A DNA stretch of 46,233 nt from Escherichia phage vB_EcoS_ASO78B. The DNA lies in sequence record MZ726796.1. One strand, 5' to 3'. The translations under genes and the position numbers were made by a program. Below the pieces are notes generated by a model, which saw only the letters and a list, made by a program, of their open reading frames with translations, was not told the origin of the DNA and searched no databases. Shown piece after piece: positions 548-43,460 of this stretch. Position 1 is the stretch's first letter. Every line of letters begins with the position of its first letter.

Positions 548-1060
548 ATGCCATCATTAAAAGAGCTCGCTCTCACTCAGGAAAGACTTAAGCATCTACT
601 GCATTACAATCCAGATACTGGTGTTTTCACATGGGTTCAGCGCGCCTCAAAAAGCGTAAGAGTTGGTAATTCAGCTGGCAGTAAGAATAAGTCAGGCTAT
701 ATAGATATACGCATCGATAAGTCTTTACACAAAGCTCATCGGCTTGCGTGGCTTTACATTTATGGTGTGTGGCCCAATGGGAAAATAGATCACATCAATA
801 ACGTGAAGACAGATAACAGAATCTGCAACCTGAGAGAAGCAAGTAATAATGAAAACGGATGGAATGTTGGTAAACCATCGACAAATACGTCAGGAGTAAA
901 AGGTGTGAGTTGGGATGCAGAGAAAAATAAATGGAAGGCGCATTGCAGGGTTTTTGGGAAAAAATATACGGTAGGTAGGTTTTCATCACAAGAAGATGCT
1001 GAGAGAGCTGTGGCTGAGTTCAGAAATAAACATCACGGGGAGTTTTGTAATCATGGCTAG
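548..1060 (+). CDS. HNH-AP2 homing endonuclease
   Basis: HNH motif IDHINNVKTDNRICNLREA plus C-terminal AP2-like SGVKGVSW..GRF; GAGGA RBS before ATG 548; stop overlaps TerL start. Confidence 0.8.
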   Translation: MPSLKELALTQERLKHLLHYNPDTGVFTWVQRASKSVRVGNSAGSKNKSGYIDIRIDKSLHKAHRLAWLYIYGVWPNGKIDHINNVKTDNRICNLREASNNENGWNVGKPSTNTSGVKGVSWDAEKNKWKAHCRVFGKKYTVGRFSSQEDAERAVAEFRNKHHGEFCNHG

Positions 1061-2477: not shown

Positions 2478-2553
2478 ATCTGCACAACCGCACTTGACCA
2501 ATCTACACCGGGCGCATAGTATAATCTACATCAGGTTTATCGGAGATATCACT

Positions 2554-2760
2554 ATGCGCAGCTATGCAGGATTTACACAGGAGGAAAAAGAGCAGGTTTA
2601 TTCACTGGCACGGGCTGGTGTACCTGATGAGGTGATTTGCCGTCGGTATGACATCAACGAGGATTTCCTGCTGCGCGTTCTGGATGATGTTTTCGTTAAC
2701 CTGCAAGAGAAGCGCGGGTATAAGGGTATCTGCTGCAAGAATGATTTTTTGAGGGGGTGA
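2554..2760 (+). CDS. hypothetical protein
   Basis: 68 aa from ATG 2554 with GGAGAT RBS; upstream in-frame ATG 2494 lies inside the promoter region. Confidence 0.45.
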   Translation: MRSYAGFTQEEKEQVYSLARAGVPDEVICRRYDINEDFLLRVLDDVFVNLQEKRGYKGICCKNDFLRG

Positions 2761-5088: not shown

Positions 5089-6019
5089 TGCCCGCCTTCC
5101 GCAACCGCGCATATCGCAGAGTCTGACAGACCCGTTAGGCGCTGCGACTCGCCTGTCAAAGATGGATAAGGTGATAACGCGCAAATACAAACAACTCAGG
5201 AATCGTGCGCTTGGGTTGTTCCGCACTATTCCGCATAGTCAGACTAACGCAGAATCAAGCGACATGTATTTCTATGATTTCAGTAGTGCGCGGGCAGCCA
5301 CGTTCATGGATGAGTTACAGGCGCTGATTGACGAGATTCTTCTGGAAGGTGATGATTTCGGTCACGGCAGGCTGTGGGCTAACGTGTTCATTGGTGATGC
5401 ATATCAGGCCGGCACACAGAAGGCAAACTCAGAGCTATCAAGCCTGTCTCCTGTTTATGCTGAGCAGAGGCCGATTGCCGCGATACTCTACAGTGAGCCT
5501 TATCTGAACCGGCTCCAGCTGGCTTATACGCAAGGATATTCAGACTGGCGCGGATTGAGTGATTATTCCCGTCAGCAACTGGCATCTGTCATCATGGAAG
5601 GCATTGCTCGTGGCGCAAATCCTCGTAACGTTGAAGCTGACATTGTTAAGCGTGTTGATGTGTCGCACAGCTACGCGAAGCAAATCGCACAGACGGAAAT
5701 TACCGGAACTCTGCGGCAGGCTAACAGGCGAGAAGTCATTGAGGCTCGCGAAGAGTTGGGTATTGAGACGGTGATGCTGTGGCAGTCGGCATTGATGCGT
5801 ACAACCCGTCAGACACACGCGGCAAGACATGGACGGTTTTACACGCCAGAAGAGATTGACACGTTCTATAGTGAGAATGGCAACAGATATAATTGTCACT
5901 GTGCGCAAATTCCAACACTGTTAATGGATGGCAAGCCAGTCATTCTTGAGTCATCACAGGAAAGGCTTGATAAGCAGCGTGAGGCTTGGCAATCGGCAAA
6001 CAAAAAGCCCTCTAAGTGA
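5069..6019 (+). CDS. head morphogenesis protein (Mu F / SPP1 gp7 family)
   Basis: C-terminal [17 protein letters not shown]...NCHC motif as in Phage_Mu_F domain; start overlaps portal 3' end. Confidence 0.75.
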
Positions 6020-6035
6020 GGGCTTGGTTTTATCT
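6006..6035 (+). terminator. rho-independent terminator
   Basis: hairpin AAGCCCTC-TAAGT-GAGGGCTT then GGTTTTA; stop codon lies in the loop. Confidence 0.6.
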
Positions 6036-7779: not shown

Positions 7780-7811
7780 CTTCATCACCTCATTCGTCAC
7801 TTGATGTAGAT

Positions 7812-7840
7812 ACTATGCACCACCACTCAATCTACGTCAA
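7812..7840 (-). promoter_or_regulatory. sigma70-like promoter for accessory island 1
   Basis: minus strand reads TTGACG, 17-nt spacer, CATAGT; overlaps copies of the AATCTACRYCA motif. Confidence 0.4.
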
Positions 7841-7884
7841 TACCTGTTGTGATAGAATTAATCATTATTTGAACAGGAGGCAGA

Positions 7885-8853: not shown

Positions 8854-9325
8854 ATACTGGCGACCGTTGGCAATTATTATAATTGTTGTGCTCTGCGCGC
8901 TATGGGTGCGTGGCGAAATCATCAGCTACGGCGACCAGCGATACGCAGACGGATATGAAAAAGCCGTCGCAGACCAGAAGGCTGCAGACGAACAAGAGGA
9001 GCAACGACGCAATGCAGAACTGCAAAAGATTCAGGCCGACGCACGGCAAAGGATTGACGCTGCGCGCAATGATGCTGTCAATGCTGCTGCTAAGTCTGGC
9101 AGGTTGCAGCAACAACTCGCAAACATCCGCAAGCAGCTCGTCGGATATTCCACCACTGAGTCCATTGGCAACCCAGCCGCAGAAACCGGAGTTTTGCTCT
9201 CCGGCGTGCTCAGCAAATCTGTCGAAAGAAATCGACAACTGGCAGATTACGCTGACCGGGCAAGGGAAGCAGGACTAGCGTGTGAGGCGCAATACAATTC
9301 GCTGCGCAATAAAAAAGCCCCGTAA
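8837..9325 (+). CDS. i-spanin (Rz-like)
   Basis: N-terminal TMD LAIIIIVVLCALWV followed by a charged coiled-coil-like periplasmic domain; immediately downstream of endolysin and holin. Confidence 0.75.
   Translation: MSILAKYWRPLAIIIIVVLCALWVRGEIISYGDQRYADGYEKAVADQKAADEQEEQRRNAELQKIQADARQRIDAARNDAVNAAAKSGRLQQQLANIRKQLVGYSTTESIGNPAAETGVLLSGVLSKSVERNRQLADYADRAREAGLACEAQYNSLRNKKAP
9069..9278 (+). CDS. o-spanin (Rz1-like lipoprotein), nested in i-spanin +1 frame
   Basis: MMLSMLLLSLAGC lipobox then Pro/Ser-rich 69-aa product, entirely inside the Rz-like gene. Confidence 0.7.
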   Translation: MMLSMLLLSLAGCSNNSQTSASSSSDIPPLSPLATQPQKPEFCSPACSANLSKEIDNWQITLTGQGKQD

Positions 9326-9336
9326 TGGGGCTTGCG
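9315..9336. terminator. bidirectional terminator
   Basis: hairpin AAGCCCC-GTAAT-GGGGCTT with A-run upstream and T-rich downstream; separates convergent units. Confidence 0.6.
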
Positions 9337-10691: not shown

Positions 10692-10794
10692 ATTTACTAC
10701 TCCTTTCGAAATTTATTATTGACTAATCTACATCAAGTAGTCAATACTGTTTCTACACCAACGATTCTATCACAATGAGAGAGGTGATGTGGAA

Positions 10795-11465: not shown

Positions 11466-11710
11466 CAGCGCCATATATGCCGATGATGAATGAGGAAGGA
11501 ATTTTAGAATGCCCGTTATGTCAGGCGACAATTGCTCACGCCGACAGCATTAACGGTAAATGGGTTGTTGAATGCTACGAGTGTGGATGCAGGTCTGGGG
11601 TGTACATGACAGGTAAAGGAGCCATTGAATCATGGAATACCCGCAACGGACACCTCTACACCGCAGATGACTTCAATCAAGCAGCAGAGGAGCGCGATTA
11701 TGGATTATAA
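11462..11710 (+). CDS. Lar-family restriction alleviation-like zinc-ribbon protein
   Basis: CPLC..(18)..CYECGC plus downstream GAIESWNTR, matching the Lar-family pattern (CPFCG...C..C...AI.AWNRR) as recalled; ATGA-coupled to upstream gene. Confidence 0.55.
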   Translation: MTAPYMPMMNEEGILECPLCQATIAHADSINGKWVVECYECGCRSGVYMTGKGAIESWNTRNGHLYTADDFNQAAEERDYGL

Positions 11711-12188
11711 ATCGCAAATCATGCGCGTGATTATCAATCACCCAGGAGCAACGCGCGCATACATTGAGAAGCATTGCGGCGGCAAGCATTCAAGCACTAC
11801 AACGCATCGACTTCATGAAATGCTGGCGCTTGGATTCATTCGTCGCGAGAAGTCAGTGATTCGTGGTGGCAAGTGGCAGTACAAGTATTTTATCTCTGAT
11901 GATGCGGCAGGTATTGATGATGCAATTAAGTGCCATTTGCTTGATAACGCTGGCGCAGAGGTGAAAGAAATCAGTGGCGCAACTGGCATTGATTATCGCA
12001 TCGTGAAAAGCAGAATCCGCATCATGTTTCAGAGTGGCGATGTGGTTCGTAATTATGACCAGCACAAGAAGCTATGGCGCTATTCATGGAAACAACAGGA
12101 AATTAATGTAAGCAATCTGTTTAATTCGCTTCTGCGCAACGCAAGAGGTAATCATGGGAAAAGCCAAGCGCAAGAAACAAGAGTATGA
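11700..12188 (+). CDS. hypothetical protein, possible tandem winged-helix DNA-binding protein
   Basis: 162 aa from ATG 11700; two repeats resembling wHTH units; weak call. Confidence 0.4.
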   Translation: MDYKSQIMRVIINHPGATRAYIEKHCGGKHSSTTTHRLHEMLALGFIRREKSVIRGGKWQYKYFISDDAAGIDDAIKCHLLDNAGAEVKEISGATGIDYRIVKSRIRIMFQSGDVVRNYDQHKKLWRYSWKQQEINVSNLFNSLLRNARGNHGKSQAQETRV

Positions 12189-13405: not shown

Positions 13406-15288
<1,883 letters not shown>

Positions 15289-15290
15289 TA

Positions 15291-16361
15291 ATGGAAAAGA
15301 TTATTTTTACCAAAGACTTGGTAGCCAACTCCGCAGTAGTGGCTGACCAGTGGAAACACCTCACCATCGACCGTAAGGTATTCTGCAATGCAGAAGCTGA
15401 ACTGGCGAAAACTTACGGCGTGAACGCTACCGCACTGGTAACGAAAGATTACTGGCGCGACGTGGACAACGTCACCACCCGCGTTTTCCGCAACGAAGCT
15501 GGTCAGGATATGATGGCTGACCTGATGGGTATCGCGGCAAACATCAACATTGGTAAGACTGTGGCAATCAGCCGCATCGCTTCCGATGCTGGTAAGGTCG
15601 TCCGCACCCTGTCTGGTCAGGAACCGGAAGATCTGGATAAAACCCGCTACGATTACACTGGCGATGTGATCCCAATCTTCAAAACTGGCTACAGCCGCGA
15701 GTGGCGCGAACTGCTGGGCATGCAGTCTGAAGGTTTCGACCCGCTGCTGGACGATCAGGCTAACGTCACCTTCAACCTGCGTTCCGACATGGCGCAGTAT
15801 CTGCTGACTGGCGACCAGACTCTGAACGTGAACGGCGTTTACACTGGTTACGGCATCACCAACCACCCAAACACTGTTCAGGTTAACCTGAATGCTTCAG
15901 GCGGCCTGAATATCGACCTGCAAACCGCAACACCTGACCAAATCGTGACCTTCTTTAATCAGGATTTCCAGTCTATTCTGGATAAGCAGAACGTGTTTGA
16001 GCAGGTAACTCTGTGGGTTTCCCCGGCAGTACGTCGTAGCTTCATGCGTCCGTATTCTGACGCGGCAGGATTCAAAGGCGGCACAGTTGAGCAGTACATC
16101 ACGCAGTTCGGCAATGGTCGCATCGGCAAGATTGGCACCAACTTCCTGCTGACCGGCAACCATTTCGTTGGTTACGTTCGCAACGACATGTACATCCGTC
16201 CGCGCGTTGCTCAACCTGTTTCCACCTACGCCGCAGCCCGCGCAAACCCGCACGATAACTTCAATTTCCTCGTGTGGTCTGCTTTTGGTCTGCAAATTCG
16301 CAAGGATGCCACTGGCAAGTCCAGAGTATTCAACGGCTACGGCACGCAAACTCCGCAGTAA
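15291..16361 (+). CDS. major capsid protein
   Basis: 356 aa downstream of scaffold, followed by a strong terminator; positional and size-based call. Confidence 0.7.
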   Translation: MEKIIFTKDLVANSAVVADQWKHLTIDRKVFCNAEAELAKTYGVNATALVTKDYWRDVDNVTTRVFRNEAGQDMMADLMGIAANINIGKTVAISRIASDAGKVVRTLSGQEPEDLDKTRYDYTGDVIPIFKTGYSREWRELLGMQSEGFDPLLDDQANVTFNLRSDMAQYLLTGDQTLNVNGVYTGYGITNHPNTVQVNLNASGGLNIDLQTATPDQIVTFFNQDFQSILDKQNVFEQVTLWVSPAVRRSFMRPYSDAAGFKGGTVEQYITQFGNGRIGKIGTNFLLTGNHFVGYVRNDMYIRPRVAQPVSTYAAARANPHDNFNFLVWSAFGLQIRKDATGKSRVFNGYGTQTPQ

Positions 16362-16363
16362 TA

Positions 16364-16390
16364 AAAAGGGGCGAATAGCCCCTTTTAACT
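16364..16390 (+). terminator. rho-independent terminator
   Basis: AAAAGGGGC-GAATA-GCCCCTTTT directly after the capsid stop. Confidence 0.7.
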
Positions 16391-16400
16391 ATCAGAGGTT

Positions 16401-16784
16401 ATGATGACCAGCAAAGGCATTGAGCAAGAGATTCAGGACAAAGGCAGTGAAGCACCACGAGTAACCGGGCAACACATTGAAGGCATTATTGCTCAGGAGG
16501 CATATTTCACAGCAGAAGATGGTGCCTTTGGCAAAGCCATAAAAGCGAAACATACTGGTGGAGAGATAAACTACCAGCCGCACCAATCACTTTCTCTGCT
16601 GACGTTCTGCGTCCTGGTGCTGCGCAACGGCTTCACCGTCACCGGAGAGAGCGCCTGTGCAAGCCCGGAAAACTTTGATGCAGAAATTGGTCGGAAGATT
16701 GCCCGGCAGAATGCTGTAAACAAAATCTGGATGCTTGAGGGCTATCTCCTTAAGCAGAATCTTTCGGAGGTAAATAATGGCTAA
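16401..16784 (+). CDS. hypothetical protein
   Basis: 127 aa; AGAGG RBS. Confidence 0.45.
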   Translation: MMTSKGIEQEIQDKGSEAPRVTGQHIEGIIAQEAYFTAEDGAFGKAIKAKHTGGEINYQPHQSLSLLTFCVLVLRNGFTVTGESACASPENFDAEIGRKIARQNAVNKIWMLEGYLLKQNLSEVNNG

Positions 16785-16974
16785 ATACGAAGTCATCGCA
16801 CGCGGAATCTTTGTTAAAGAGAAAGGCAAGATCCGTGAGTTGCAGCTTGGCGAGGTGATTACCGAACCAGCCGAGCATCTGCTACCAAAGCTGCGCATCA
16901 TGCCAGAACTGGAAAAGTCTTTCGAAGTCGCAACACCACAACAAAAGACGACAAAGAAAAAGAAAGCAGAGTAA
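16777..16974 (+). CDS. hypothetical protein
   Basis: 65 aa; GGAGGT RBS; basic C-terminus. Confidence 0.4.
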   Translation: MAKYEVIARGIFVKEKGKIRELQLGEVITEPAEHLLPKLRIMPELEKSFEVATPQQKTTKKKKAE

Positions 16975-16976
16975 AC

Positions 16977-17003
16977 AAAACCCGCATAATGCGGGTTTTA
17001 TTG
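16977..17003. terminator. bidirectional terminator
   Basis: AAAACCCGC-ATAAT-GCGGGTTTTA between convergent + and - units. Confidence 0.65.
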
Positions 17004-17540
17004 CTACAGACGCATCGGCATAACAACAATCTTCGCAGTCTCGCCAGTTGGCGCACTAAGGCAGCAAGCTGCGGCATTTGTATTCCCATTCAATTCAAAC
17101 TTAACGCTACAGAATTTAGGATTAAACAGCTTCGCAGCTTTCTCGATATCCACAAGATAGCCAGCATTGAATCCGATGCAATCAGCAGCTTTCGTTTCCT
17201 TTGGTATCACGCGATCAATATCAGGGAATCGACCATCAATCTCTTCGCAGATACCAGCGCCAACCATCACGCCAGCTTCATTATGATATGTTGCAATTTT
17301 CGCCTTAGTATCAATGATTGCGCACTCATATCGCTTTGTTGGTGCCTTGCCAATCTTGATAATCACATTTTCTGTCAGCTTATTGTCATGACTGCTGCCA
17401 ATAAATGCACGATGACCGTCAGTTGATGCAATACGACCATCAGGCATAAAGCAAATACCATTCAGGTAGTAACGCACATCATTGCGAGCCTGAAATATTA
17501 ATGCTGATTCAAGTAATAGTTTGCTGATTTTTAGTTTCAT
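17004..17540 (-). CDS. truncated beta sliding-clamp (DnaN domain II-III) homolog
   Basis: DVRYYLNG, ASTDGHRA, IDGRFPD.DRVIPK and C-terminal KIVVMPMRL align to E. coli DnaN residues about 133-366; domain I absent, domain III shortened. Confidence 0.7.
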   Translation of the reverse strand: MKLKISKLLLESALIFQARNDVRYYLNGICFMPDGRIASTDGHRAFIGSSHDNKLTENVIIKIGKAPTKRYECAIIDTKAKIATYHNEAGVMVGAGICEEIDGRFPDIDRVIPKETKAADCIGFNAGYLVDIEKAAKLFNPKFCSVKFELNGNTNAAACCLSAPTGETAKIVVMPMRL

Positions 17541-17713
17541 CACTTCACCTTAATCATGTGCTGCTTTGCAACCTTCAGGCATTCTTCAAAAATGCCACCT
17601 TTCTTAGCGCTCTGATTGCGCTTGTAATACTGAATTGCCGCATCAACTGCCATCTGGTCGATGTCAGGCAGCTTGGCTCTTAATTGTTTTTCGATGAATT
17701 GTTCAGCGTTCAT
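17540..17713 (-). CDS. small hypothetical protein (57 aa)
   Basis: Hand-translated ORF (MNAEQFIEKQL..); stop overlaps the clamp-like gene ATG by 1 nt. Confidence 0.3.
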   Translation of the reverse strand: MNAEQFIEKQLRAKLPDIDQMAVDAAIQYYKRNQSAKKGGIFEECLKVAKQHMIKVK

Positions 17714-17954
17714 GATTTATCTTCACCCATCCTTTGCTTGCACCATGCGATACGATAAGTCCTTTCTTGCGCAACGCCTGAAGTCGGCGATCAAGGACTC
17801 GAAATCCCTCATGTGGTTTTGTTGCCAGCTTTTCACACTCTGCATGTATTCCGCTATGAATGCCTCCAGAGAAATGAATAGCCATGAACGTCATCGGCTC
17901 AACATAATCAAGCTCATCCATAATCATTGCGTCGAGTTCTTCATACTTGCTCAT
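17703..17954 (-). CDS. hypothetical protein
   Basis: 83 aa; C-terminal RVLDRRLQALRKKGLI may be a winged-helix DNA-binding element. Confidence 0.45.
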   Translation of the reverse strand: MSKYEELDAMIMDELDYVEPMTFMAIHFSGGIHSGIHAECEKLATKPHEGFRVLDRRLQALRKKGLIVSHGASKGWVKINHER

Positions 17955-18763
17955 CGCATCTTCTCCAGAATTGCCATGACCTCATGAATGTCAGCGACAG
18001 GAATCTGAATAAATTCCTCATCCTCTGCCACCACATGACCAGCAGGTAGAATTACATGGTCGGCTTGCTTCAACAGTTCAATCAGGCGGTCCACTGGCTT
18101 AATCTTCTTTGACTTCAGCACCTTCGCTGTGACCTTATCCTTGCCTTGCGCTTTAGCCTCTTCGACTGCCTCGTTGATAACTTTAACCGCATCATCACCA
18201 TGCTCGCGCGTTACCGCTACGGCGTTTGCATAGCTGATTTGCCCTGCGCTGATGCGAGCCTTCACTTCTGCTGGCACATCACCCAGTGACAGATGCATTT
18301 GCACGTCAGATACTGAACGACCTACCTTCTTGGCGATCTCTTCATTCGTCCAGCCAAAGCCTTTCAGTCTCGTATAAGCCTTCGCGCGCTCAAACGGGTC
18401 AAGTTGCTTTCCCTGACTGGATGAAACCATGAAGGCGATTTTATCTGCTTCGTCTCCGGTAAAATCCTTACACTCAATACGAACTATTGGTGCACCTCGT
18501 TCAATGGCACGCAATGCGCCGAGATAGCGATGCTGACCATCAAGAATGCGGATTCCCTTCTCGTCTGGAATGACTGTTAATGCTGGCAGTGGCTGACCTG
18601 ATTCCCAGCACTGCGCGAAATACTCCACATGCTGCTCATCTGCTTCACGGATGTTGTATCCTGGTTCCAGATAGATTTGCTCAACTGGCACTAGATAGGT
18701 TTTGTTAACAGCGATGCCGTTGCGCGTTTCTTTGTCTGAATAGATTTTGCTTAGTGTTTTCAT
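17951..18763 (-). CDS. ParB-like nuclease domain protein
   Basis: ParB/Srx-type motif IRILDGQHRYLGA in N-terminal half; 270 aa. Confidence 0.7.
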   Translation of the reverse strand: MKTLSKIYSDKETRNGIAVNKTYLVPVEQIYLEPGYNIREADEQHVEYFAQCWESGQPLPALTVIPDEKGIRILDGQHRYLGALRAIERGAPIVRIECKDFTGDEADKIAFMVSSSQGKQLDPFERAKAYTRLKGFGWTNEEIAKKVGRSVSDVQMHLSLGDVPAEVKARISAGQISYANAVAVTREHGDDAVKVINEAVEEAKAQGKDKVTAKVLKSKKIKPVDRLIELLKQADHVILPAGHVVAEDEEFIQIPVADIHEVMAILEKMR

Positions 18764-19107
18764 TGTTTCTTTCCTAATGCTTTCTTGATAGATTCTTCAG
18801 CCAACAGCAATTCTTCTGGGTATTGCTCATTCCAGTTTTGTTTGTATGCCTTGCTAAGCATTTTTTGCAGAGCTTCAAGCAACTCAGGTGCTGCTGCCAT
18901 TAAATTAAAGTCATGTTCAACAGATGAATCAATTTCCCATCGCACTCCATTAAATTTGGCTCCCTTGTTTGAATAAGCAATATTGCGAGAATCATCCCTG
19001 TGACATCCTGGAGTGTCATCAATGCAACTGGCTGGGTAAATTGCTGCGCAACCTCCACGGATGTCTGCAACCCAAGGCCGTTTCGTACCTTTGAATTCAT
19101 CTTTCAT
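18760..19107 (-). CDS. hypothetical protein
   Basis: 115 aa, first gene of the operon. Confidence 0.45.
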   Translation of the reverse strand: MKDEFKGTKRPWVADIRGGCAAIYPASCIDDTPGCHRDDSRNIAYSNKGAKFNGVRWEIDSSVEHDFNLMAAAPELLEALQKMLSKAYKQNWNEQYPEELLLAEESIKKALGKKQ

Positions 19108-19146
19108 TTCATCACCTCTAACATTTATTGTTGTTTCTACGTCATC

Positions 19147-19175
19147 ACTATAAACGCCGCACCAATCTACGTCAA
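19147..19175 (-). promoter_or_regulatory. sigma70-like promoter for the ParB/clamp operon
   Basis: minus strand TTGACG, 17-nt spacer, TATAGT; overlaps two copies of the recurring motif. Confidence 0.45.
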
Positions 19176-19222
19176 CTGGAATATGCTAAAATCATGCTAA
19201 TCAAACAATAGGAGATTTAAAC

Positions 19223-19342
19223 ATGGGTTCAACAAACGGTCCGTCTCGTTCGCGCGCTACTGGCAACACCAAAGCTGGCGGCAAAACCGGCGCAGTGAAG
19301 CCAAACGGCTCCACCCGTTCACCATCGCGCGGTAAGAAATAA
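19223..19342 (+). CDS. small basic Gly/Ser-rich protein (39 aa)
   Basis: Hand-translated; AGGAG RBS 8 nt upstream; TAATG coupling to next gene. Confidence 0.3.
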   Translation: MGSTNGPSRSRATGNTKAGGKTGAVKPNGSTRSPSRGKK

Positions 19343-19782
19343 TGTTCGGCGCAGATATTGCCATCATGATCATGTATGTGCTGGGATTCGCCTGCACGGG
19401 CATGGTCGCGTTTCTGGTGTTCATTCCGGCAATGGCGATGTCTGCGTATCTTGGATGGGTGCTTGTTGATTCATTTCCCGCCGAATATCTGTATTACCTT
19501 GCGCAGTCTATGGTCTGGTTGCTTCCGGCTATTGCACTGCGCAAAAGTACAAAGATGGCGCTCTGCGTGCTGGCGATGAGCCTTTACGAATGGCTGGTTG
19601 CGATTGAGTCATTCGTATGGGAATTTATCACGCCTGTAGAAACGCCGCTTCATGCGCAGTACGCATTTATTATTATCGGCATCCATCTGTTCATCCTTTT
19701 CATCACTTTTAAATGGGGCGGCGAAATTGGACATTATTCTTGGCGTGGTCGCCATTGTTTTTTCGCTGATTCAAATCTATAA
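19342..19782 (+). CDS. integral membrane protein
   Basis: 146 aa with 4-5 hydrophobic helices. Confidence 0.45.
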   Translation: MFGADIAIMIMYVLGFACTGMVAFLVFIPAMAMSAYLGWVLVDSFPAEYLYYLAQSMVWLLPAIALRKSTKMALCVLAMSLYEWLVAIESFVWEFITPVETPLHAQYAFIIIGIHLFILFITFKWGGEIGHYSWRGRHCFFADSNL

Positions 19783-21712: not shown

Positions 21713-21738
21713 AAAGCCGCACTTGGCGGCTTTTAATT
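21713..21738. terminator. bidirectional terminator
   Basis: AAAGCCGC-ACTTG-GCGGCTTT followed by TTAATT. Confidence 0.6.
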
Positions 21739-21927: not shown

Positions 21928-22003
21928 TGGCACACCATGCAGGATTCGAACCTGCAACCAATAGCTTAGAAGGCTACTGCTCTGTCCGTTGAGCTAATGG
22001 TGT
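21928..22003 (-). tRNA. tRNA-Arg (anticodon UCU)
   Basis: 76-nt cloverleaf read by hand: 7-bp acceptor stem ACACCAT/ATGGTGT, D-arm GCTC-AACGGACA-GAGC, anticodon loop CTTCTAA, T-arm GCAGG-TTCGAAT-CCTGC, encoded CCA. Confidence 0.8.
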
Positions 22004-22009
22004 TTGATT

Positions 22010-22097
22010 TGGCGGATAGTACAGGATTCGAACCTGTGAACCGTTTCCAGTTTATCGGTTAGCAACCGACTGCTTTCGGCCTCTCAGCCAACTATCC
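22010..22097 (-). tRNA. tRNA-Ser (anticodon GCU), type II
   Basis: 88 nt with long variable arm; acceptor GGATAGT/ACTATCC, anticodon loop TTGCTAA, T-arm ACAGG-TTCGAAT-CCTGT, encoded CCA. Confidence 0.75.
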
Positions 22098-22567
22098 GTT
22101 TATTTAGTGCTGGTTTAAGCATTGCCAGCATGCTTTCCTAATATCCAGCCCCGTAACCCATACATACCCCTACATATGATTGCGATAATGCTGGATATTA
22201 AGTGTTGTGGTGGCCGGCACTGATCTCCGGCTTGCGATGTCACGAATTTGCTACAGTAGAACGTTCACTTTGCTACTGGTCATGAGCGCATCAGCCTGCG
22301 CATTCACCACAACGGAAAGAGCACTGGCTAACCAAGCGCGCAGACTCTTCACGATTATCTGCTCAATGCTCTTACCTGTTGCGTTCCCTGACTTATTAAT
22401 CACACCTCAGGGACGCAGTGCGCCGAATTTGTTTACAAGGAATCGGAATACCTTGCTGACTTACAGGCTATTACGCCGCCATCAGAACAACATCATCGTT
22501 TGCATTTATCTTTGTGGTCAGTTTCTAAAAAGTCCGCAAAGTCGCTCACGAAAACTATCTGAAATAC

Positions 22568-22596
22568 AATCTACACCACAAAATAATCACTGTCAA
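22568..22596 (-). promoter_or_regulatory. consensus sigma70 promoter driving the tRNA transcript
   Basis: minus strand TTGACA, 17-nt spacer, TAGATT; points toward the tRNAs about 480 nt downstream. Confidence 0.55.
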
Positions 22597-23371: not shown

Positions 23372-23397
23372 AAAGCCCCGAAAGGGGCTTTGTTTAT
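23372..23397. terminator. bidirectional terminator
   Basis: AAAGCCCC-GAAA-GGGGCTTT flanked by A-run and T-rich tract. Confidence 0.7.
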
Positions 23398-24328: not shown

Positions 24329-24358
24329 AATCTACATCACCACCTCGCAGGTGTCAAC
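24329..24358 (-). promoter_or_regulatory. sigma70 promoter for the Imm-like operon
   Basis: minus strand TTGACA, 18-nt spacer, TAGATT, about 35 nt upstream of the Imm-like ATG. Confidence 0.5.
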
Positions 24359-24368
24359 ACCACTGAGA

Positions 24369-24377
24369 TGATATAAT
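24369..24377 (+). promoter_or_regulatory. extended -10 promoter (TGaTATAAT) for the tail chaperone/tape measure operon
   Basis: TG-n-TATAAT just upstream of ORF 24398. Confidence 0.45.
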
Positions 24378-24397
24378 CAACATCAGTCAAATTCAGG

Positions 24398-27486: not shown

Positions 27487-27514
27487 AAAAAAGCCCCTCA
27501 CGGGGCTTTTTTTA
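27485..27514. terminator. bidirectional terminator
   Basis: A8-GCCCC-TCAC-GGGGC-T7 between tape measure stop and the convergent KilA-N gene stop. Confidence 0.75.
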
Positions 27515-28162
27515 AATCTTATCAGCGCATTTACGTACTACCCTCGGTATCGTTTCTTTCAGTTCATCCCATGAGTTGACCGCTTCCATATCCAGAAGCG
27601 TGACAAGAGACTTCTGGATGTCACTGCGTAACTGGTTAGTTTTTGCGTCCTGAGAGTCCCATGTGTCAAATCCGGTAACTTCACGGATATCTATCGACTC
27701 CTTTACTGCCTTTGCCACCTGAATGAAATGACCACTATGACCAATCCTGCCCTCTGTGCGTTCAAGCATTCTGCTGACGGCAGCATTAAGTTCCACGAAG
27801 CTTACCGCACCAATATTTCGCAATTCAACCTGCCTCTGCGTAATGAATCTGTCGATGACGAGGAAATGGAAATATGTGCTGTATTGCTCTGCTATATATA
27901 CAGCCAGATGCAAGCAAGCAAAAGTGGAACCATTTCTACCTCGTGTTGATTTTATTGCGCTATCGATACCAAGCTGCTTTTCGCACTCAGCCTTGAAATC
28001 CTTAAACGCATCAGTTGCCATTACCTGTCGTATTTCTCTCGTCCCCATCCCATTATCCAGTCGCCAGCGATTCATCTGGTTAACAAGCTCATTAACGTTA
28101 ATAAAATTTTCACGGTCGAAAGTGATCTCTCCGTACGGGAACTCTAATGTTTGCAGTTTCAT
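27512..28162 (-). CDS. KilA-N domain protein
   Basis: 216 aa; N-terminal region with INVNEL..W and IKSTRGRNGSTFACLHLAVYIAEQYSTYFHFLVIDRF fits the KilA-N pattern (RGG..GTW.HP.LA...A.WLSP.F.V.V). Confidence 0.5.
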   Translation of the reverse strand: MKLQTLEFPYGEITFDRENFINVNELVNQMNRWRLDNGMGTREIRQVMATDAFKDFKAECEKQLGIDSAIKSTRGRNGSTFACLHLAVYIAEQYSTYFHFLVIDRFITQRQVELRNIGAVSFVELNAAVSRMLERTEGRIGHSGHFIQVAKAVKESIDIREVTGFDTWDSQDAKTNQLRSDIQKSLVTLLDMEAVNSWDELKETIPRVVRKCADKI

Positions 28163-28191: not shown

Positions 28192-28217
28192 AAATTCTAC
28201 ATTCAAATGTAGAATTT
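28192..28217. promoter_or_regulatory. 26-bp palindromic operator overlapping the KilA-N promoter
   Basis: AAATTCTACATT-CA-AATGTAGAATTT, perfect 12-bp arms; on the minus strand it fills the spacer and -10 of a TTGCAA, 18-nt spacer, TAGAAT promoter. Confidence 0.6.
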
Positions 28218-34211: not shown

Positions 34212-34240
34212 AAAAACCCCGCTTCGGCGGGGTTAGTTTT
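34212..34240. terminator. bidirectional terminator
   Basis: A7-CCCCGC-TTCG-GCGGGG-TTAGTTTT between tail fibre and convergent SSB. Confidence 0.75.
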
Positions 34241-36348: not shown

Positions 36349-36385
36349 TGTTAACCTCACTCATCATCACGTAAATGAATCTACA

Positions 36386-36862
36386 TCAATCTACATCGGA
36401 AAGCAAGCCAAAATAGAAAAGCGTGGCTTTTTTTAGTTGCTCAAGACCATAAGCGATAGCGGCGTAGTGACCGAGTCTGCACATCTCAGTTAGCACGGCA
36501 TACTGGTCTTTGCTCACTCTGCTCTTACTTTTGTCACGGCGCTTTGCCTCAATCATTCCACAACTGTGCTTCACTCCAGGCGTCATTATCACGTTGTCGC
36601 CTATTCCAGTCTTAACCCCCATCTTCTGGCGTTTCAGTACGAACTGGATGCGGCTGGACGTGCCTGTTTCATTCGGGACGTGAAACCAGAGCACGTCAGG
36701 GAATTGGCTTTGCATCCATGTGCCGTAACCCATCTGTTCAGTCTCCTCTTTCGGGCATTCCCCACGATAACCGCTATCAAATACCCATATACCGCTATCA
36801 AGCTGCTTCACTTTGTTCTCCTGCAAAATCTTTTCTGTGGATGATGTCGCGACCTTTATCAT
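36386..36862 (-). CDS. VRR-NUC domain nuclease
   Basis: GDNVIMTPG...GMIEAKRRD...SKDQYAVL pattern; start uncertain because the 5' end overlaps the helicase. Confidence 0.6.
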   Translation of the reverse strand: MIKVATSSTEKILQENKVKQLDSGIWVFDSGYRGECPKEETEQMGYGTWMQSQFPDVLWFHVPNETGTSSRIQFVLKRQKMGVKTGIGDNVIMTPGVKHSCGMIEAKRRDKSKSRVSKDQYAVLTEMCRLGHYAAIAYGLEQLKKATLFYFGLLSDVD

Positions 36863-38720
36863 TAATGCGGTGCGTGATGCGTTTTGGCGCTTTAATCAAT
36901 GCCGCATACATCATGAATTGCTTGGCGTTTTGGCATTTCAGTATTTTCCCCGCCATTGACTTATCATCAAGGTGAGGAAAGACCGCCTTTGCCTTGAACA
37001 TGTTTTTCATGTGAGTTGCGCCACCATAAGGGTAGAAAACTTCGTTAGCCCAGCCTTCTTTGCCATCACAACGATTAATCCAGTAGCGATACAAAATACC
37101 TTCTCCATCCTTAGTTAACTGGACTTTGAAATCCATAACATCAGCCCACTCATTATCGGTATACGCACGCTCATTAAGTGCCGCATTCGGGTCGCGCAAA
37201 ACATGATCGCAATGTCGGCAATAACGCGCAGTGGGGTCGTTTTTAGTGCCGCAGCCATCATCAAAAATACGGATTCCGTGCTTATCGAAACCGCAACGGA
37301 TGTAACTGAAAAACTCCTCGCAACGACCGTCTGGCGATAATGCATCTTTGCCAATGCAGCGGCGCGCATATGGGCTGTTCATTGTCCCGCACTTCGGACA
37401 CGGAACCTGTTCACCACTGCGTTTTGAACGTTGCGCTTCAGCCTCTTCAAGGATTGGGTCTTCATACAGCTGACCAAGCTCAAACATCGTGCCTGAGAAA
37501 TCAAGAACCAGATGATCTTCTTTATGATACCCGGCATCAATTTGCTCTTTCTTCAGCAAGCGCATCCCGCGACCAAGCAACTGGACAAGGAGAGTTAGCG
37601 ACATTATTTTTCGTAATATGCAGCTCGTATCCCATAGCGGAATGTTGACACCAGTGGTAAGGGCTGCTATCTGGAATGTGAATTTTTTGCGCCCGGTGTA
37701 TGCATCTTTTAGAGCCTTCCTTCTGGCTTTTGGCCCCATATCTTCTGTAACTATTGAATAGCTTCCTTCAGGTAGGTATTTTGCCGCCTCCTGACAGTGC
37801 TTCTTGCCAGCACATGTAATCAATACTCCGTTTCTGTTTTTAGTCAGCTCCATAACCTTTAGCATTATTTTCTGCGTCAGCGTACCTTGTTCAAGGATTT
37901 CTTTCTGCATCTGCTTGAGCTGCTCGGTGGTAAAGTCCTGTGTGCCATCAACATCTGAACCATGAAACTCGGAAAGGTCATAATGCAGACTATCAACATC
38001 ATGAAGACCAAAAATTGTTGGCACAAGAAAGCCGTTTTCAACCATGTACTTGGTGTCTATATTGATAATCTCTTTCTTCCAGAAAGCGCCTTTTATTGAT
38101 GTAGTTCCGCGAAACGGTGAGCCTGTATAACCTATTATTCTCAACTCATGGCCGTGCTTATCTTTGCACCTTTTCATTAGCTCATTAATTATCACTGCAT
38201 ACTGCGTATCACCATCATTAACAACATCAATGTCATTAACCATATGATTTTCATCGATAAGCAGGAATCTTGGGCAAAAGTCAGAAAGCGCACCTTTTGC
38301 AATAACATTCCCTGATTCATCATTTTTATCAAACAAAGCATTTACAACAGTACCCTCAGAACCACAAATTATTGGATACGTAGAACTTTTCCTCCCCAAC
38401 GAAGCGCTGAATAGCGAGTTTCTTACACCAAGCGACCATAGCTCTTCCGCATCTTGCTCCACTATTTCGCCCTGTCTTGATAAAATCATCCCTGAATAGC
38501 CCATTTCCTGAAAACGCTTTGCTATCATGGCAATCATCAGTGACTTTCCGCTACCGACGCTTGCTGTTACATAGCTTGGACCAACATAATGGCGGATCAC
38601 ATCACCAGTTAACTTATATATCAACCACTGATATGGTCTTGGCTCGATATCACCAGTATCCAGATAAGATTTCAGTAGATTAATATCAATCTCTGAAATC
38701 ATCTTGTCTATTTTATGCAT
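36798..38720 (-). CDS. SF2 DNA helicase (DExH box) with C-terminal zinc ribbons
   Basis: Walker A SVGSGKS, LLIDENH DExH box, C-terminal CPKCG...C and CRHC pairs. Confidence 0.8.
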   Translation of the reverse strand: MHKIDKMISEIDINLLKSYLDTGDIEPRPYQWLIYKLTGDVIRHYVGPSYVTASVGSGKSLMIAMIAKRFQEMGYSGMILSRQGEIVEQDAEELWSLGVRNSLFSASLGRKSSTYPIICGSEGTVVNALFDKNDESGNVIAKGALSDFCPRFLLIDENHMVNDIDVVNDGDTQYAVIINELMKRCKDKHGHELRIIGYTGSPFRGTTSIKGAFWKKEIINIDTKYMVENGFLVPTIFGLHDVDSLHYDLSEFHGSDVDGTQDFTTEQLKQMQKEILEQGTLTQKIMLKVMELTKNRNGVLITCAGKKHCQEAAKYLPEGSYSIVTEDMGPKARRKALKDAYTGRKKFTFQIAALTTGVNIPLWDTSCILRKIMSLTLLVQLLGRGMRLLKKEQIDAGYHKEDHLVLDFSGTMFELGQLYEDPILEEAEAQRSKRSGEQVPCPKCGTMNSPYARRCIGKDALSPDGRCEEFFSYIRCGFDKHGIRIFDDGCGTKNDPTARYCRHCDHVLRDPNAALNERAYTDNEWADVMDFKVQLTKDGEGILYRYWINRCDGKEGWANEVFYPYGGATHMKNMFKAKAVFPHLDDKSMAGKILKCQNAKQFMMYAALIKAPKRITHRINDKGRDIIHRKDFAGEQSEAA

Positions 38721-39241
38721 TATTTTACCCTACCAAATTCACCATGATACTTTTTTGATGCTTCCGCATAAACTTTTGCTGCTTCTTCTTTTGTATCATA
38801 TCTGCCGAGCCATATTTTTTTATTATTTACATGTATAGAGCAAGTCCATTTTTTTGTTTGCTTACAAAAACCAACCCCTTTTACACCGGATGTGTTATGG
38901 CTTGGAATCCTCATGTTTCTTAAATTTCCATTAAAGTTTGTTTCTCTTAGGTTTTCTATCCTGTTATTCAATCTATTACCATCTTTATGGTCTATTATTA
39001 ACTCAGGCCAATAACCATGCACTAAAGCCCAAATTATTCTATGAACCTTTATATCAACCCCTAAAAATCCAACCTGAAGATATCCACTTACAGTCTTCGA
39101 ACCTGCAATAGCGCCACGTTTAACCCTGTTTGTTGTTGTTCTTTTCCATATGAGATTTATTCCGTCATATGAAAAATACTCCCGCAGCGTGGATACTGGT
39201 ATTGACTTCTCTTTTAACTTCATCAATTCGAAATCATTCAC
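38720..39241 (-). CDS. HNH-AP2 homing endonuclease (paralog of 548-1060)
   Basis: IDHKDGNRLNNRIENLRE HNH motif and SGVKGVGF..GRY AP2-like region; 1-nt overlap with helicase start. Confidence 0.8.
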   Translation of the reverse strand: MNDFELMKLKEKSIPVSTLREYFSYDGINLIWKRTTTNRVKRGAIAGSKTVSGYLQVGFLGVDIKVHRIIWALVHGYWPELIIDHKDGNRLNNRIENLRETNFNGNLRNMRIPSHNTSGVKGVGFCKQTKKWTCSIHVNNKKIWLGRYDTKEEAAKVYAEASKKYHGEFGRVK

Positions 39242-39303
39242 TTTACGTTACCCTCACTCAGTGTTACGCTTAAAGCATACAAACAGTAACAGATGGAGTC
39301 AAC

Positions 39304-40254: not shown

Positions 40255-40257
40255 AAG

Positions 40258-40283
40258 AAACCCTCCAATAGGAGGGTTTTTGT
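40258..40283. terminator. bidirectional terminator
   Basis: AAACCCTCC-AATA-GGAGGGTTTTT. Confidence 0.7.
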
Positions 40284-40699
40284 TATTCCTTGAACTCTGG
40301 CGCTTCAGTCCAGAAGGCTACATTTCGCAGCGACTTACCCGTGTGATTGCACCAGTATATGCCTGAGTCATCATACTTCGCAGTAACCTTTACGCGATCA
40401 GCATCAATAACAACAACCTCCTGTCCATCTTTAGGGTCGAAAAGACGCGCATCTTTCCAGTTAGCAATCTCATTAAGTGAAAGAATGACATAACCAGGAA
40501 GATAAGAGCCGACATCAGCGATGTGAACTATAGTTCTCTCTGTTCTCTCTCCTGTGTAGTCTCCATTCCACTCATAAAGAATAATCGTGTCTCCAACCTT
40601 AAAATCACGATCGTTCTTTCTTAGTTCCGCCTTCTTGTGTCCGGTGACTACAGGCCAGAAGTGCTCAGGTAAAATTTTAAGTTCGTGTGTTTTGCTCAT
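40283..40699 (-). CDS. DUF3850 / ASCH-like (PUA-fold) domain protein
   Basis: N-terminal HELKILPEHF..V.TG.KKAELRKNDRDFKVGD matches the DUF3850 pattern as recalled; about 60-aa C-terminal extension. Confidence 0.55.
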   Translation of the reverse strand: MSKTHELKILPEHFWPVVTGHKKAELRKNDRDFKVGDTIILYEWNGDYTGERTERTIVHIADVGSYLPGYVILSLNEIANWKDARLFDPKDGQEVVVIDADRVKVTAKYDDSGIYWCNHTGKSLRNVAFWTEAPEFKE

Positions 40700-42568: not shown

Positions 42569-42573
42569 TCACC

Positions 42574-43401: not shown

Positions 43402-43430
43402 ATTGACGTAGAGTCACAACTGATGTAGAT
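43402..43430 (+). promoter_or_regulatory. sigma70 promoter for the right-end + strand genes
   Basis: TTGACG, 17-nt spacer, TAGATT, 30 nt upstream of ATG 43461; both hexamers sit within copies of the recurring motif. Confidence 0.5.
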
Positions 43431-43460
43431 TGAACTCATCGAAACAACGAGGGTGAAGAG

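What the first reader, a model, noticed from the sequence alone, without database searches (positions are those of the whole stretch)
7801..7840. Recurrent 11-bp motif AATCTACRYCA at about nine promoter regions
Copies read directly at 2500-2509, 2523-2533, 7801-7811 (inverted), 7829-7840, 10725-10736, 10751-10760, 19134-19144, 19164-19175, 22568-22578, 24329-24339, 28195-28214 (palindrome), 36378-36398 (tandem), 43402-43412 and 43420-43430. They occur only in intergenic regions, usually as pairs 17-30 bp apart, and in several cases coincide with the -35 (TTGACG) or -10 (TAGATT) hexamer of sigma70-like promoters. This suggests either a phage-specific promoter consensus or an operator for a global regulator. 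Candidate binders are the possible tandem winged-helix protein (11700-12188) and the KilA-N protein.
Basis: seen in the sequence. Interest (0 to 1): 0.65.

Follow-up and report, generated by a model that had tools for sequence, protein, structure and literature searches.

The report
Shared operator-like motif in phage early promoters
An 11-base sequence (AATCTACRYCA) is built into the core of nearly every strong early-type promoter of this lytic Salmonella/E. coli phage and its relatives.

Summary
AATCTACRYCA has 8 exact copies against 0.14 expected. All 14 strong copies lie in intergenic DNA, at the stated coordinates within 1-2 nt.

The window is a complete ~46-kb virulent siphovirus genome of the Skatevirus group. 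The motif (core WWTCTACRYCA, TCTAC invariant) is kept at orthologous promoters in Skatevirus and Roufvirus phages that share only ~70% nucleotide identity.

It is not a fixed-geometry promoter consensus, because nothing is conserved at a fixed distance from it. In 8 genomes, 104 of 122 copies overlap a −35/−10 sigma70-like promoter, against 1.5% of random positions. A copy can lie:
- inside the −35 (TTGACGTAGATT);
- inside the −10 (TGRYGTAGATT);
- in the spacer just after the −35;
- just after the −10, over the start site.

Either orientation occurs, and one copy is inverted in place between relatives. Late genes use a separate class, extended −10 TGnTAnAAT, which mostly lacks the motif.

Best reading: a dispersed, asymmetric operator for a family-specific trans-acting regulator that shuts off early promoters. 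The binder is unresolved. The KilA-N protein is excluded. The wHTH is disfavoured: absent from phage Akira, and only 36% conserved while the motif is unchanged. The ParB/KorB-like protein fits best but imperfectly. No description was found in the searched literature.

The parts
2500..2510 (+). Site AATCTACACCG. It lies in the spacer directly after the -35 TTGACC (2494-2499) of rightward promoter P_A.
   Evidence: conserved in Bas79, Skate, Akira, SB28 and SEzh_1
2523..2533 (+). Site AATCTACATCA. It lies directly after the -10 TAGTAT (2517-2522) of P_A and covers the predicted start site. P_A precedes the conserved 68-aa gene at 2554-2760.
7802..7812 (-). Site TATCTACATCA. It lies at the -10/+1 of leftward promoter P_B (-35 TTGACG 7840-7835, -10 CATAGT 7817-7812).
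7829..7839 (+). Site AATCTACGTCA. On the other strand it supplies the -35 (TTGACG) of leftward P_B. It is also centred near -31 of the rightward lysis promoter, whose extended -10 TGATAGAAT is at 7850-7858.
10725..10735 (+). Site AATCTACATCA. It lies between two opposed -35 hexamers (TTGACT 10719-10724 on + and 10744-10739 on -), so it is in the spacer of both divergent promoters P_C(+) and P_C(-).
10750..10760 (+). Site TTTCTACACCA at the -10/+1 of P_C(+). In every relative examined the same 11-mer is present as its reverse complement, an in-place inversion. There it follows the leftward extended -10 promoter (window equivalent: -35 TCCACA at 10793-10788, TG-extended -10 TAGAAT ending at 10764).
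19134..19144 (+). Site TTTCTACGTCA, antiparallel, over the start site of leftward promoter P_D (-35 TTGACG 19175-19170, -10 TATAGT 19152-19147). P_D heads the operon that contains the ParB/KorB-like gene.
19164..19174 (+). Site AATCTACGTCA. It supplies the -35 of leftward P_D and is centred near -30 of the rightward extended -10 promoter TGCTAAAAT (19184-19192).
22568..22578 (+). Site AATCTACACCA. On the other strand it supplies the -10 (TAGATT) of leftward promoter P_E (TTGACA 22596-22591, 17-nt spacer). P_E reads into the tmRNA-like element and two tRNA genes.
   Evidence: conserved in BUCT610
24329..24339 (+). Site AATCTACATCA. On the other strand it supplies the -10 (TAGATT) of leftward promoter P_F (TTGACA 24357-24352, 17-nt spacer). 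A degenerate copy, AATCAACATCA at 24375-24385, follows the rightward late -10.
28195..28214 (.). Palindrome of two variant half-sites, TTCTACATT-CA-AATGTAGAA. It overlaps the -10 TAGAAT (28199-28194) of the leftward promoter of the KilA-N gene (-35 TTGCAA 28223-28218).
36378..36398 (+). Tandem sites AATCTACATCA and AATCTACATCG, 10 bp apart. They cover the -10 (TAGATT, 36383-36378) and the spacer of a leftward promoter read by eye, with -35 TTGCTT at 36406-36401, upstream of the exonuclease/recombinase/SSB genes.
   Evidence: This promoter is weaker evidence: it was not called by the scan or by the classifier.
43403..43431 (+). Early promoter P_I built entirely from two sites 17 bp apart: T-TGACGTAGAGT gives the -35 and TGATGTAGATT gives the -10. 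The same two-site cassette recurs elsewhere in Akira, SEzh_1 and BUCT610.
2554..2760 (+). Conserved 68-aa three-helix protein, first gene behind the two-site promoter P_A. It is present in all 205 family records. It is a candidate partner, but a weak DNA-binding candidate.
17951..18763 (-). ParB/KorB-like HTH protein (270 aa) in the operon behind the two-site promoter P_D. It is the best-fitting candidate binder but is not proven.
   Evidence: against:

Best explanation
The 11-mer WWTCTACRYCA is a dispersed, asymmetric operator. A single trans-acting DNA-binding protein, specific to this phage family, is proposed to recognise each copy on its own.

The copies lie inside the RNA-polymerase footprint of almost every -35/-10-type promoter. 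These are the presumptive early promoters of the leftward accessory and DNA-metabolism operons and of three rightward small-gene operons. Occupying the sites would therefore block sigma70 contacts or open-complex formation and switch these promoters off together.

Transcription would then be left to the late genes, which use a different promoter class (extended -10, TGnTAnAAT, with no -35). At two divergent regions (7829 and 19164) the same bound copy sits at about -30 of the late promoter and could also help it.

Shown here: the enrichment, the placement, the conservation and the independence from orientation. Inferred: that a protein binds, the direction of regulation, the timing, and the identity of the binder.
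For: - Enrichment: 8 copies against 0.14 expected. All 14 strong sites are intergenic.
- Placement: 104 of 122 sites in 8 family genomes overlap a sigma70-like -35/-10 promoter, against 1.5% of random positions. The placements are within the -35, within the -10, in the spacer after the -35, or abutting the -10 over +1. These are positions typical of repressor operators (established knowledge of bacterial promoter regulation).
- These promoters already have near-consensus hexamers and 17-18-bp spacers, so they need no activator.
- There is no fixed-distance flanking signal. Both orientations occur, and the site at 10750 is inverted in place relative to the relatives examined. This fits steric blocking and does not fit recognition by RNA polymerase.
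- The parts of the motif that sigma70 would not read are conserved as strongly as the hexamers: TAGATT when the site acts as a -35, TGRYG when it acts as a -10. This holds between clades that share only ~70% nucleotide identity.
- Several promoters that precede candidate regulator genes carry two sites, which suggests autoregulation.
- The late extended -10 promoters form a separate class: 13 of 14 are on the + strand, in front of the portal, lysis, capsid, connector and tail genes, and most lack the motif.
- Paired matches outside the family are coding repeats.
Against: - No binding protein has been identified, and every candidate has a counter-argument.
- There are no transcription data for this family, so the early and late labels rest only on gene content and promoter type.
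- The motif itself resembles a -35 hexamer followed by a -10 hexamer. Part of its conservation therefore comes from promoter function.
- Sites that abut a hexamer do so within a narrow window (0 to 3 bp). That is tighter than simple occlusion would require.
- The motif is unchanged across hosts and clades in which most early proteins are only 36-66% identical. This would also fit a conserved host factor.
Confidence: 0.55

Rival explanations
1. The motif is a positive element, like a T4 MotA box. A phage factor bound at about -30 would replace the -35 contact and activate extended -10 (middle or late) promoters. Repression of the opposed early promoter would be a side effect.
For: - At 7829 and 19164 the site lies 13 and 12 bp upstream of an extended -10 promoter that has no -35.
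- The Roufvirus orthologues keep nearly the same distance, 12 and 11 bp.
Against: - Only 2 of about 14 sites in the window have this geometry.
- At 22568 and 24329 the site is 27 and 32 bp from the late -10.
- Five late promoters (3634, 13366, 28301, 29554, 32133) have no site.
- Most sites lie in promoters that already have good -35 hexamers.
- No MotA- or AsiA-like family was detected among the proteins scanned.
Confidence: 0.12
2. The motif is part of a family-specific promoter consensus. It would be read directly by host RNA polymerase, possibly after modification by the phage, and no separate operator protein would be involved.
For: - The reverse complement reads (T)TGAYG + TAGATT, that is, a -35-like hexamer followed by a -10-like hexamer.
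- Complete promoters are assembled from two copies 17 bp apart (43403-43431).
- The motif is unchanged across clades and hosts.
Against: - There is no fixed geometry.
- The copies at 2500, 2523, 10725 and 10750 lie next to the hexamers, not in them, and do not form promoters on the other strand.
- Both orientations occur relative to the promoter, and one copy is inverted in place.
- The conserved positions include bases in the spacer that sigma70 does not read.
Confidence: 0.1
3. The motif is the binding site of a conserved host (enterobacterial) DNA-binding protein that the phage family exploits.
For: - The motif logos are identical in phages of Salmonella/E. coli and of Klebsiella, although most early phage proteins have diverged to 36-66% identity.
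- Each phage-encoded candidate is missing from at least one phage that still carries the motif, or looks a poor DNA binder.
Against: - No known E. coli regulator consensus that I could recall matches the motif (my own knowledge, not a database test).
- Paired motifs in other viral contigs were coding repeats, not promoter elements of other enterobacterial phages.
- Dependence of nearly all early promoters of a virulent phage on one host regulator would be unusual.
Confidence: 0.1
4. The motif has no binder. The copies would be relics of duplicated promoter cassettes, or short homology patches that mediate exchange of gene modules between relatives.
For: - The sites lie at the borders of mosaic gene blocks that differ between relatives.
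- The two-site promoter cassette recurs at different loci in different genomes.
Against: - Only the 11-mer is shared. The sequences between and around the copies are unrelated.
- The core is intact at orthologous sites across ~30% nucleotide divergence, whereas neutral relics should decay.
- 11 bp is too short for efficient homologous exchange.
Confidence: 0.05

Closest known systems
Phage P1 C1 repressor operators (asymmetric 17-bp sites dispersed at many promoters across the genome); my own knowledge
   Same: - One asymmetric motif with many dispersed copies, single or paired in varying arrangements.
- The copies overlap the promoters of many separate operons, so one protein controls them all.
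   Different: - P1 is temperate, and C1 maintains lysogeny. This family has no integrase, and no prophage or plasmid copies of the tested capsid-to-ParB segment (13500-19500) were found in 5,426 complete E. coli genomes or in PLSDB.
- No C1-like protein was detected among the proteins scanned.
- The motif here is shorter and itself supplies the -35 or -10 hexamer.
Mycobacteriophage L5 gp71 / Bxb1 gp69 13-bp asymmetric operators and 'stoperators'; my own knowledge
   Same: - A short asymmetric site in about 15-30 copies in short intergenic gaps.
- The operator at the early promoter overlaps a TTGACA-type -35.
   Different: - Stoperators lie within transcribed DNA in one orientation and block elongation. 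Here the sites lie in promoter cores, in both orientations relative to the promoter.
- The L5 system is an immunity system of a temperate phage.
KorB (ParB family) global regulon of IncP plasmid RK2; my own knowledge
   Same: - A ParB/KorB-type HTH protein is encoded here (HTH_ParB E = 2e-11, KorB E = 4e-6).
- About a dozen promoter-associated sites are spread over the replicon.
- The promoter of the protein's own operon carries sites.
   Different: - KorB operators are 13-bp palindromes bound by a dimer. This motif is asymmetric, and the only palindromic arrangement is at 28195.
- Binding of the phage protein to the motif is untested.
- Phage SB28 lacks the gene but keeps the sites.
T4 middle promoters (MotA box at -30 plus AsiA sigma appropriation); my own knowledge
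   Same: - At two promoters a non-sigma70 motif occupies the -35 position upstream of a good or extended -10.
- There is an apparent split between -35-dependent promoters and -35-independent promoters for different gene sets.
   Different: - Most copies are not at -30.
- The motif sequence is unrelated to the MotA box.
- No MotA or AsiA homologue was detected.

Membership tests
sigma70 -35/-10 promoter (the elements the motif overlaps) | A TTGACA-like hexamer, a 16-18-bp spacer and a TATAAT-like hexamer with A at position 2 and T at position 6 | tested here: met
   Nine consensus matches overlap motif copies, at 2494, 7840, 10719, 10744, 19175, 22596, 24357, 28223 and 43403. The promoter at 36406 was read by eye only and was not called by the scan. 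These are sequence matches only; function was not tested.
Fixed-geometry phage promoter consensus (for example T7-type promoters or T4 late promoters) | The motif lies at one fixed position and in one orientation relative to the start site and to other conserved elements | tested here: not met
   No information content at any fixed distance in 103 aligned sites. Five placements and both orientations occur. One copy is inverted in place.
T4 MotA-box middle promoter | The box is centred at about -30, 11-13 bp from a -10, and replaces the -35 | tested here: not met
   This holds for only 2 sites in the window, 7829 and 19164.
T4 MotA-box middle promoter | MotA and AsiA homologues are encoded | tested here: inconclusive
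   About 30 window proteins scanned against Pfam or PHROGs gave no such hit. Not every ORF was scanned.
Dispersed asymmetric repressor operator (P1 C1 / L5 gp71 type) | A non-palindromic site in many dispersed copies that overlap promoters | tested here: met
Dispersed asymmetric repressor operator (P1 C1 / L5 gp71 type) | A cognate repressor is identified and binds the site | not testable with these tools
   Only co-occurrence and conservation arguments were possible. No binding assay could be run.
Dispersed asymmetric repressor operator (P1 C1 / L5 gp71 type) | The system maintains lysogeny or immunity in a temperate phage | tested here: not met
   No integrase or repressor module is annotated in the relatives. 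No prophage or plasmid copies of the tested capsid-to-ParB segment were found; only a ~300-bp moron gene matches.
L5-type stoperator | A single orientation relative to the direction of transcription, with a location inside transcription units | tested here: not met
   Co-directional and antiparallel copies both occur, and the copies lie in promoter cores.
ParB/KorB operator (parS / OB) | A palindromic 13-16-bp site | tested here: not met
   The motif is asymmetric, and no second inverted half-site lies at a constant spacing. The exception is the palindrome at 28195-28214.
ParB/KorB operator (parS / OB) | A ParB/KorB-family HTH protein is encoded on the same replicon | tested here: met
   The protein at 17951-18763 matches HTH_ParB (E = 2.2e-11) and KorB (E = 4.1e-6).

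The most novel reading that the evidence does not exclude
A virulent siphovirus family would run its whole early-to-late switch through one 11-bp word that is written into the -35 or -10 hexamers of its early promoters. A single phage protein, most plausibly the unusually conserved ParB/KorB-like HTH protein binding asymmetric half-sites as a flexible dimer, would occupy the sites. It would silence all -35-dependent promoters at once and hand RNA polymerase to -35-independent extended -10 late promoters. At two divergent regions it would also act as a class II-like activator.
Probability: 0.25. Interest if true: 0.65.

Novelty: new variant of a known kind. Interest (0 to 1): 0.45.

Why it matters
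Gene regulation in Skatevirus/Roufvirus phages is uncharacterised, although these are common Salmonella, E. coli and Klebsiella biocontrol and therapy candidates and include members of the BASEL collection.

This analysis gives:
- a concrete map of about 10 early promoters and 9 late promoters;
- one cis-element that can be mutated;
- a short list of proteins to test.

If the operator reading holds, it offers a compact way to switch a whole set of phage operons on or off when engineering these phages. It would also be an example of global repression by a dispersed asymmetric site outside temperate phages and plasmids.

Tried and rejected
- **wHTH as binder.** The protein is absent from Akira except for its first 23 residues, yet Akira keeps about 19 sites. 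It is only 36% identical between clades although the motif is the same in both. Caveat: the age of the loss is unknown.
- **KilA-N as binder.** No homologue was found in four motif-bearing relatives, so this is rejected.
- **ParB/KorB-like as binder.**
  - For: the central part including the HTH is almost identical between clades.
  - Against: SB28 lacks the gene but has 21 core hits against 2.7 expected.
  - E1 has the gene, and the remnant in SB28 is at ordinary identity, so the deletion cannot be dated.
  - Homologues at 43-48% identity in unrelated phages OS31 and Kp4864-1 show no motif enrichment.
  - Verdict: unresolved.
- **The TTACCGG repeats at 42968-43400 as the ParB-like protein's sites.** These repeats are unique to this window's swapped replication module, so this is rejected.
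- **The 68-aa protein (2554-2760) as binder.**
  - It is universal in the family.
  - It is predicted as a three-helix bundle, and the top Foldseek hits are HTH domains but with E > 0.5.
  - It has no Pfam or PDB sequence match.
  - It is acidic, and helix 3 has no conserved basic residue in distant homologues.
  - Verdict: a weak candidate.
- **Search for the motif outside the family.** Two-site matches in IMG/VR outside the family were coding repeats. A peptide scan for more distant relatives of the 68-aa protein returned only Roufvirus contigs.
- **Literature.** Searches with the motif strings and with 'Skatevirus' found no description. The paper on phage E1 is not held. The supplement of the genome-reduction paper on phage seszw is not held.
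- **RNA-level function.** Rejected, because many copies lie upstream of the predicted start sites.

Full report
**What the window is.** The 46,233-bp window is a complete genome of a siphovirus of the Skatevirus group.
- It is 87-91% identical over 60-83% of its length to Escherichia phages Bas77-81, Salmonella phages Skate, SeSz-2 and Akira, IME207 and others.
- The taxonomy and the BASEL paper place these phages in or near Skatevirus, as O-antigen-dependent lytic phages of 46-48 kb.
- Annotated relatives show late structural and lysis genes on one strand. These are interrupted by short opposed operons of small unknown genes and DNA-metabolism genes. No integrase, repressor module or RNA polymerase is annotated.
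- No prophage or plasmid copy of the tested capsid-to-ParB segment (13500-19500) exists in 5,426 complete E. coli genomes or in PLSDB; only a ~300-bp moron gene matches.

- AATCTACRYCA occurs 8 times against 0.14 expected, and 16 times against 2.95 with one mismatch. No shuffle reached either count.
- A weight matrix places all 14 strong copies in intergenic DNA; only weaker matches fall in genes.
- The informative core is WWTCTACRYCA with TCTAC invariant, plus weak preferences one or two bases either side.

**Where the copies sit.** Each copy overlaps a sigma70-like promoter with a recognisable -35.
- P_A: TTGACC-17-TAGTAT at 2494-2522 (+).
- P_B: TTGACG-17-CATAGT at 7840-7812 (-).
- P_C: two opposed promoters, TTGACT-18-AATACT at 10719-10748 (+) and TTGACT-18-AATAAT at 10744-10715 (-).
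- P_D: TTGACG-17-TATAGT at 19175-19147 (-).
- P_E: TTGACA-17-TAGATT at 22596-22568 (-).
- P_F: TTGACA-17-TAGATT at 24357-24329 (-).
- P_G: TTGCAA-18-TAGAAT at 28223-28194 (-).
- P_H: TTGCTT-17-TAGATT at 36406-36378 (-). This one was read by eye and was not called by the scan.
- P_I: TTGACG-17-TAGATT at 43403-43431 (+).

Relative to these promoters the motif takes five placements.
1. Antiparallel, supplying the -35 (T-TGACG-TAGATT).
2. Antiparallel, supplying the -10 (TGRYG-TAGATT).
3. Co-directional, in the spacer directly after the -35 (TTGACN|AATCTAC...).
4. Co-directional, abutting the -10 and covering +1 (TAGTAT|AATCTACATCA).
5. Antiparallel, over +1.

Across eight family genomes, 104 of 122 copies fall into one of these classes, against 1.5% of random positions. 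P_I is built wholly from two copies 17 bp apart. The same cassette recurs at other loci in Akira, SEzh_1 and BUCT610.

**A second promoter class.**
- TGnTAnAAT occurs 14 times, 13 of them on the + strand.
- These stand just upstream of the portal (3634), lysis (7850), capsid (13366), connector (19184), major tail (22603), tail (24369, 28301, 29554) and tailspike (32133) genes, without a -35.
- Only two have the motif at about -30 (7850 and 19184).
- Two share a divergent region with a motif-bearing leftward promoter.
- Five have no copy.

The motif therefore marks the -35-dependent class, not the late class. The early and late labels are inferred from gene content; there are no transcription data.

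**Conservation.** The copies are present at orthologous intergenic sites in:
- Bas79 and Skate;
- Akira;
- SB28, with 21 core hits against 2.7 expected;
- SEzh_1;
- the Roufvirus phages BUCT610 and pYD38-A, which share only about 70% nucleotide identity with the window.

The motif logos of the two clades are the same. The conserved positions include bases that sigma70 would not read in that placement.

The second copy in the 10692-10794 region is present as its exact reverse complement in all relatives examined. This is an in-place inversion that moves it from the rightward to the leftward promoter.

More distant relatives are known only from ~1-4-kb contigs. They keep TCTAC-type sites in the promoter of the homologue of the 68-aa protein. 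One reads TTGACG-17-TAGAAT-CTACATCA.

**What the motif is not.**
- Aligning 103 copies shows no information at any fixed distance on either side. It is therefore not one half of a fixed-geometry promoter consensus.
- Paired matches elsewhere in IMG/VR are coding repeats, such as runs encoding Asp-Val-Asp, not promoter elements.
- Nothing in the searched literature describes it.

**Who binds it? This remains open.**
- *KilA-N protein (27512-28162).* It has no homologue in four motif-bearing relatives.
- *Protein at 11700-12188.*
  - It is a weak MarR-type wHTH with a Ren-like second half.
  - It is replaced in Akira, which keeps all sites.
  - It is only 36% identical between clades.
- *ParB/KorB-like protein (17951-18763).*
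  - It matches HTH_ParB at 2e-11 and KorB at 4e-6.
  - It is the most conserved non-structural protein: 99% within the clade and 80% between clades, with the HTH region nearly identical.
  - It lies behind a two-site promoter.
  - Against it: the motif is asymmetric.
  - Against it: SB28 lacks the gene, although E1 has it and the deletion cannot be dated.
  - Against it: homologues at 43-48% identity in unrelated phages come without the motif.
- *68-aa protein (2554-2760).*
  - It is the first gene behind the two-site promoter P_A.
  - It is present in all 205 family records.
  - It folds as a three-helix bundle (pLDDT 81), and its best structural neighbours are HTH domains, though not significantly.
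  - It is acidic and lacks conserved basic residues in the third helix. It may bind protein rather than DNA.
- *Other universal small early proteins.* DUF7301, DUF7540, DUF7334 and others have no known function.

**Most likely mechanism.** A trans-acting protein binds each 11-mer independently or as a flexibly linked dimer. Because the sites lie within the -35 to +6 region of promoters that are already near consensus, occupancy excludes RNA polymerase and shuts down all early operons together, including the operons that encode the candidate regulators. Late genes then rely on the extended -10 class. At 7829 and 19164 the bound protein sits at about -30 of the late promoter and may assist it. 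I put this at about 0.55.

The rivals are:
- a MotA-box-like activator;
- a polymerase-read consensus;
- a host factor;
- binder-free cassette relics.

Each is listed with the evidence for and against it.

**Comparison with known systems.** In logic the motif resembles the dispersed asymmetric operators of P1 C1 and of mycobacteriophage L5 gp71, and the KorB regulon of RK2. It differs in three ways.
- It occurs in a virulent phage.
- It doubles as the -35 or -10 hexamer.
- It shows no orientation rule.

It fails the defining tests for a MotA box, a stoperator and a palindromic parS/OB site.

**Verdict.** The motif is a real, conserved and apparently undescribed regulatory word of an understudied phage family. 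The kind of element is known, the particular design is a variant, and the binding protein is still to be found.

Noticed in passing
window 22416-22560 (- strand), just downstream of the leftward promoter at 22596-22568: A ~145-bp element is conserved at 72-91% nucleotide identity in many unrelated phages (Vi01-like, N4-like EC1-UPM, HK620, Ag3), where nothing is annotated. It gives weak Rfam hits to tmRNA models (tmRNA_permuted, 27 bits, E = 0.001, below the gathering score). It contains an SsrA-like tag reading frame, GCA AAC GAU GAU GUU GUU CUG AUG GCG GCG UAA, which encodes ANDDVVLMAA-stop. ARAGORN calls no tmRNA. In HK620 the element lies between pR'/qut and the late terminator. It may be a mobile phage RNA that mimics the mRNA-like part of tmRNA.
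   Followed up: partly
window 21928-22097 (- strand): tRNA-Arg(tct) and tRNA-Ser(gct) lie on the minus strand, inside the rightward late operon. They appear to be served by the same motif-bearing leftward promoter and to end at the bidirectional terminator at 21713-21733.
   Followed up: partly
window 40283-43400: The replication module is not homologous to that of Bas79, Skate, Akira or BUCT610. It comprises a 525-aa helicase/primase-like ORF at 40699-42276, small ORFs, and a 430-bp non-coding stretch at 42968-43400. The stretch carries TTACCGG repeats, including the palindrome TTTACCGGGTAAA at 43172, that are found only in this window. This looks like a swapped origin with iterons and its initiator.
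   Followed up: partly
window 3634, 7850, 13366, 19184, 22603, 24369, 28301, 29554, 32133 (+ strand): There is a distinct class of extended -10 promoter-like sites, TGnTAnAAT, without a -35. Thirteen of 14 are on the + strand, directly upstream of late gene clusters. The count alone is only mildly above chance (14 against 8.6). The strand bias and the positions are the signal.
   Followed up: partly
window 2554-2760 (+): An unannotated-function 68-aa acidic protein is predicted to form three helices. It lies between the large terminase and portal genes and has its own strong promoter. It is present in all 205 family records (97-98% identical within the clade, about 54% in Roufvirus) and has no Pfam or PDB sequence match. 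It could be an RNA-polymerase or sigma-binding factor rather than a DNA binder.
   Followed up: partly
window 548-1060 (+) and 38720-39241 (-): Two HNH_3 + AP2-domain homing-endonuclease-like genes are present. The second lies where relatives have a motif-bearing divergent promoter region upstream of the primase gene. In this window that region (39242-39303) has no motif copy, but it does have a consensus-like leftward promoter, TTGACT-17-TATGCT.
   Followed up: no
window 17951-18763 (-): The ParB/KorB-like protein has a DGQHR-type N-terminal motif (ILDGQHRYLGALRA). It is 99% identical across Salmonella and E. coli phages and 80% identical to the Klebsiella phage version. It is still present in the smallest records (about 37 kb) of the seszw genome-reduction series, although a natural isolate (SB28) lacks it.
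   Followed up: partly
window 16404-16784 (+): A ~300-bp stretch (about 16453-16760) is 90-95% identical to a 'Gp49 family protein' gene in hundreds of E. coli chromosomes (prophages) and a few plasmids. Of the four relatives compared, only Akira has a homologue (70% amino-acid identity). This is a recently exchanged moron.
   Followed up: no
window 6005-6025, 9315-9333, 21713-21733, 23372-23391, 34215-34234, 40256-40281: Strong bidirectional intrinsic-terminator hairpins lie at every convergent junction between rightward and leftward gene blocks. They neatly delimit the opposed transcription units.
   Followed up: no
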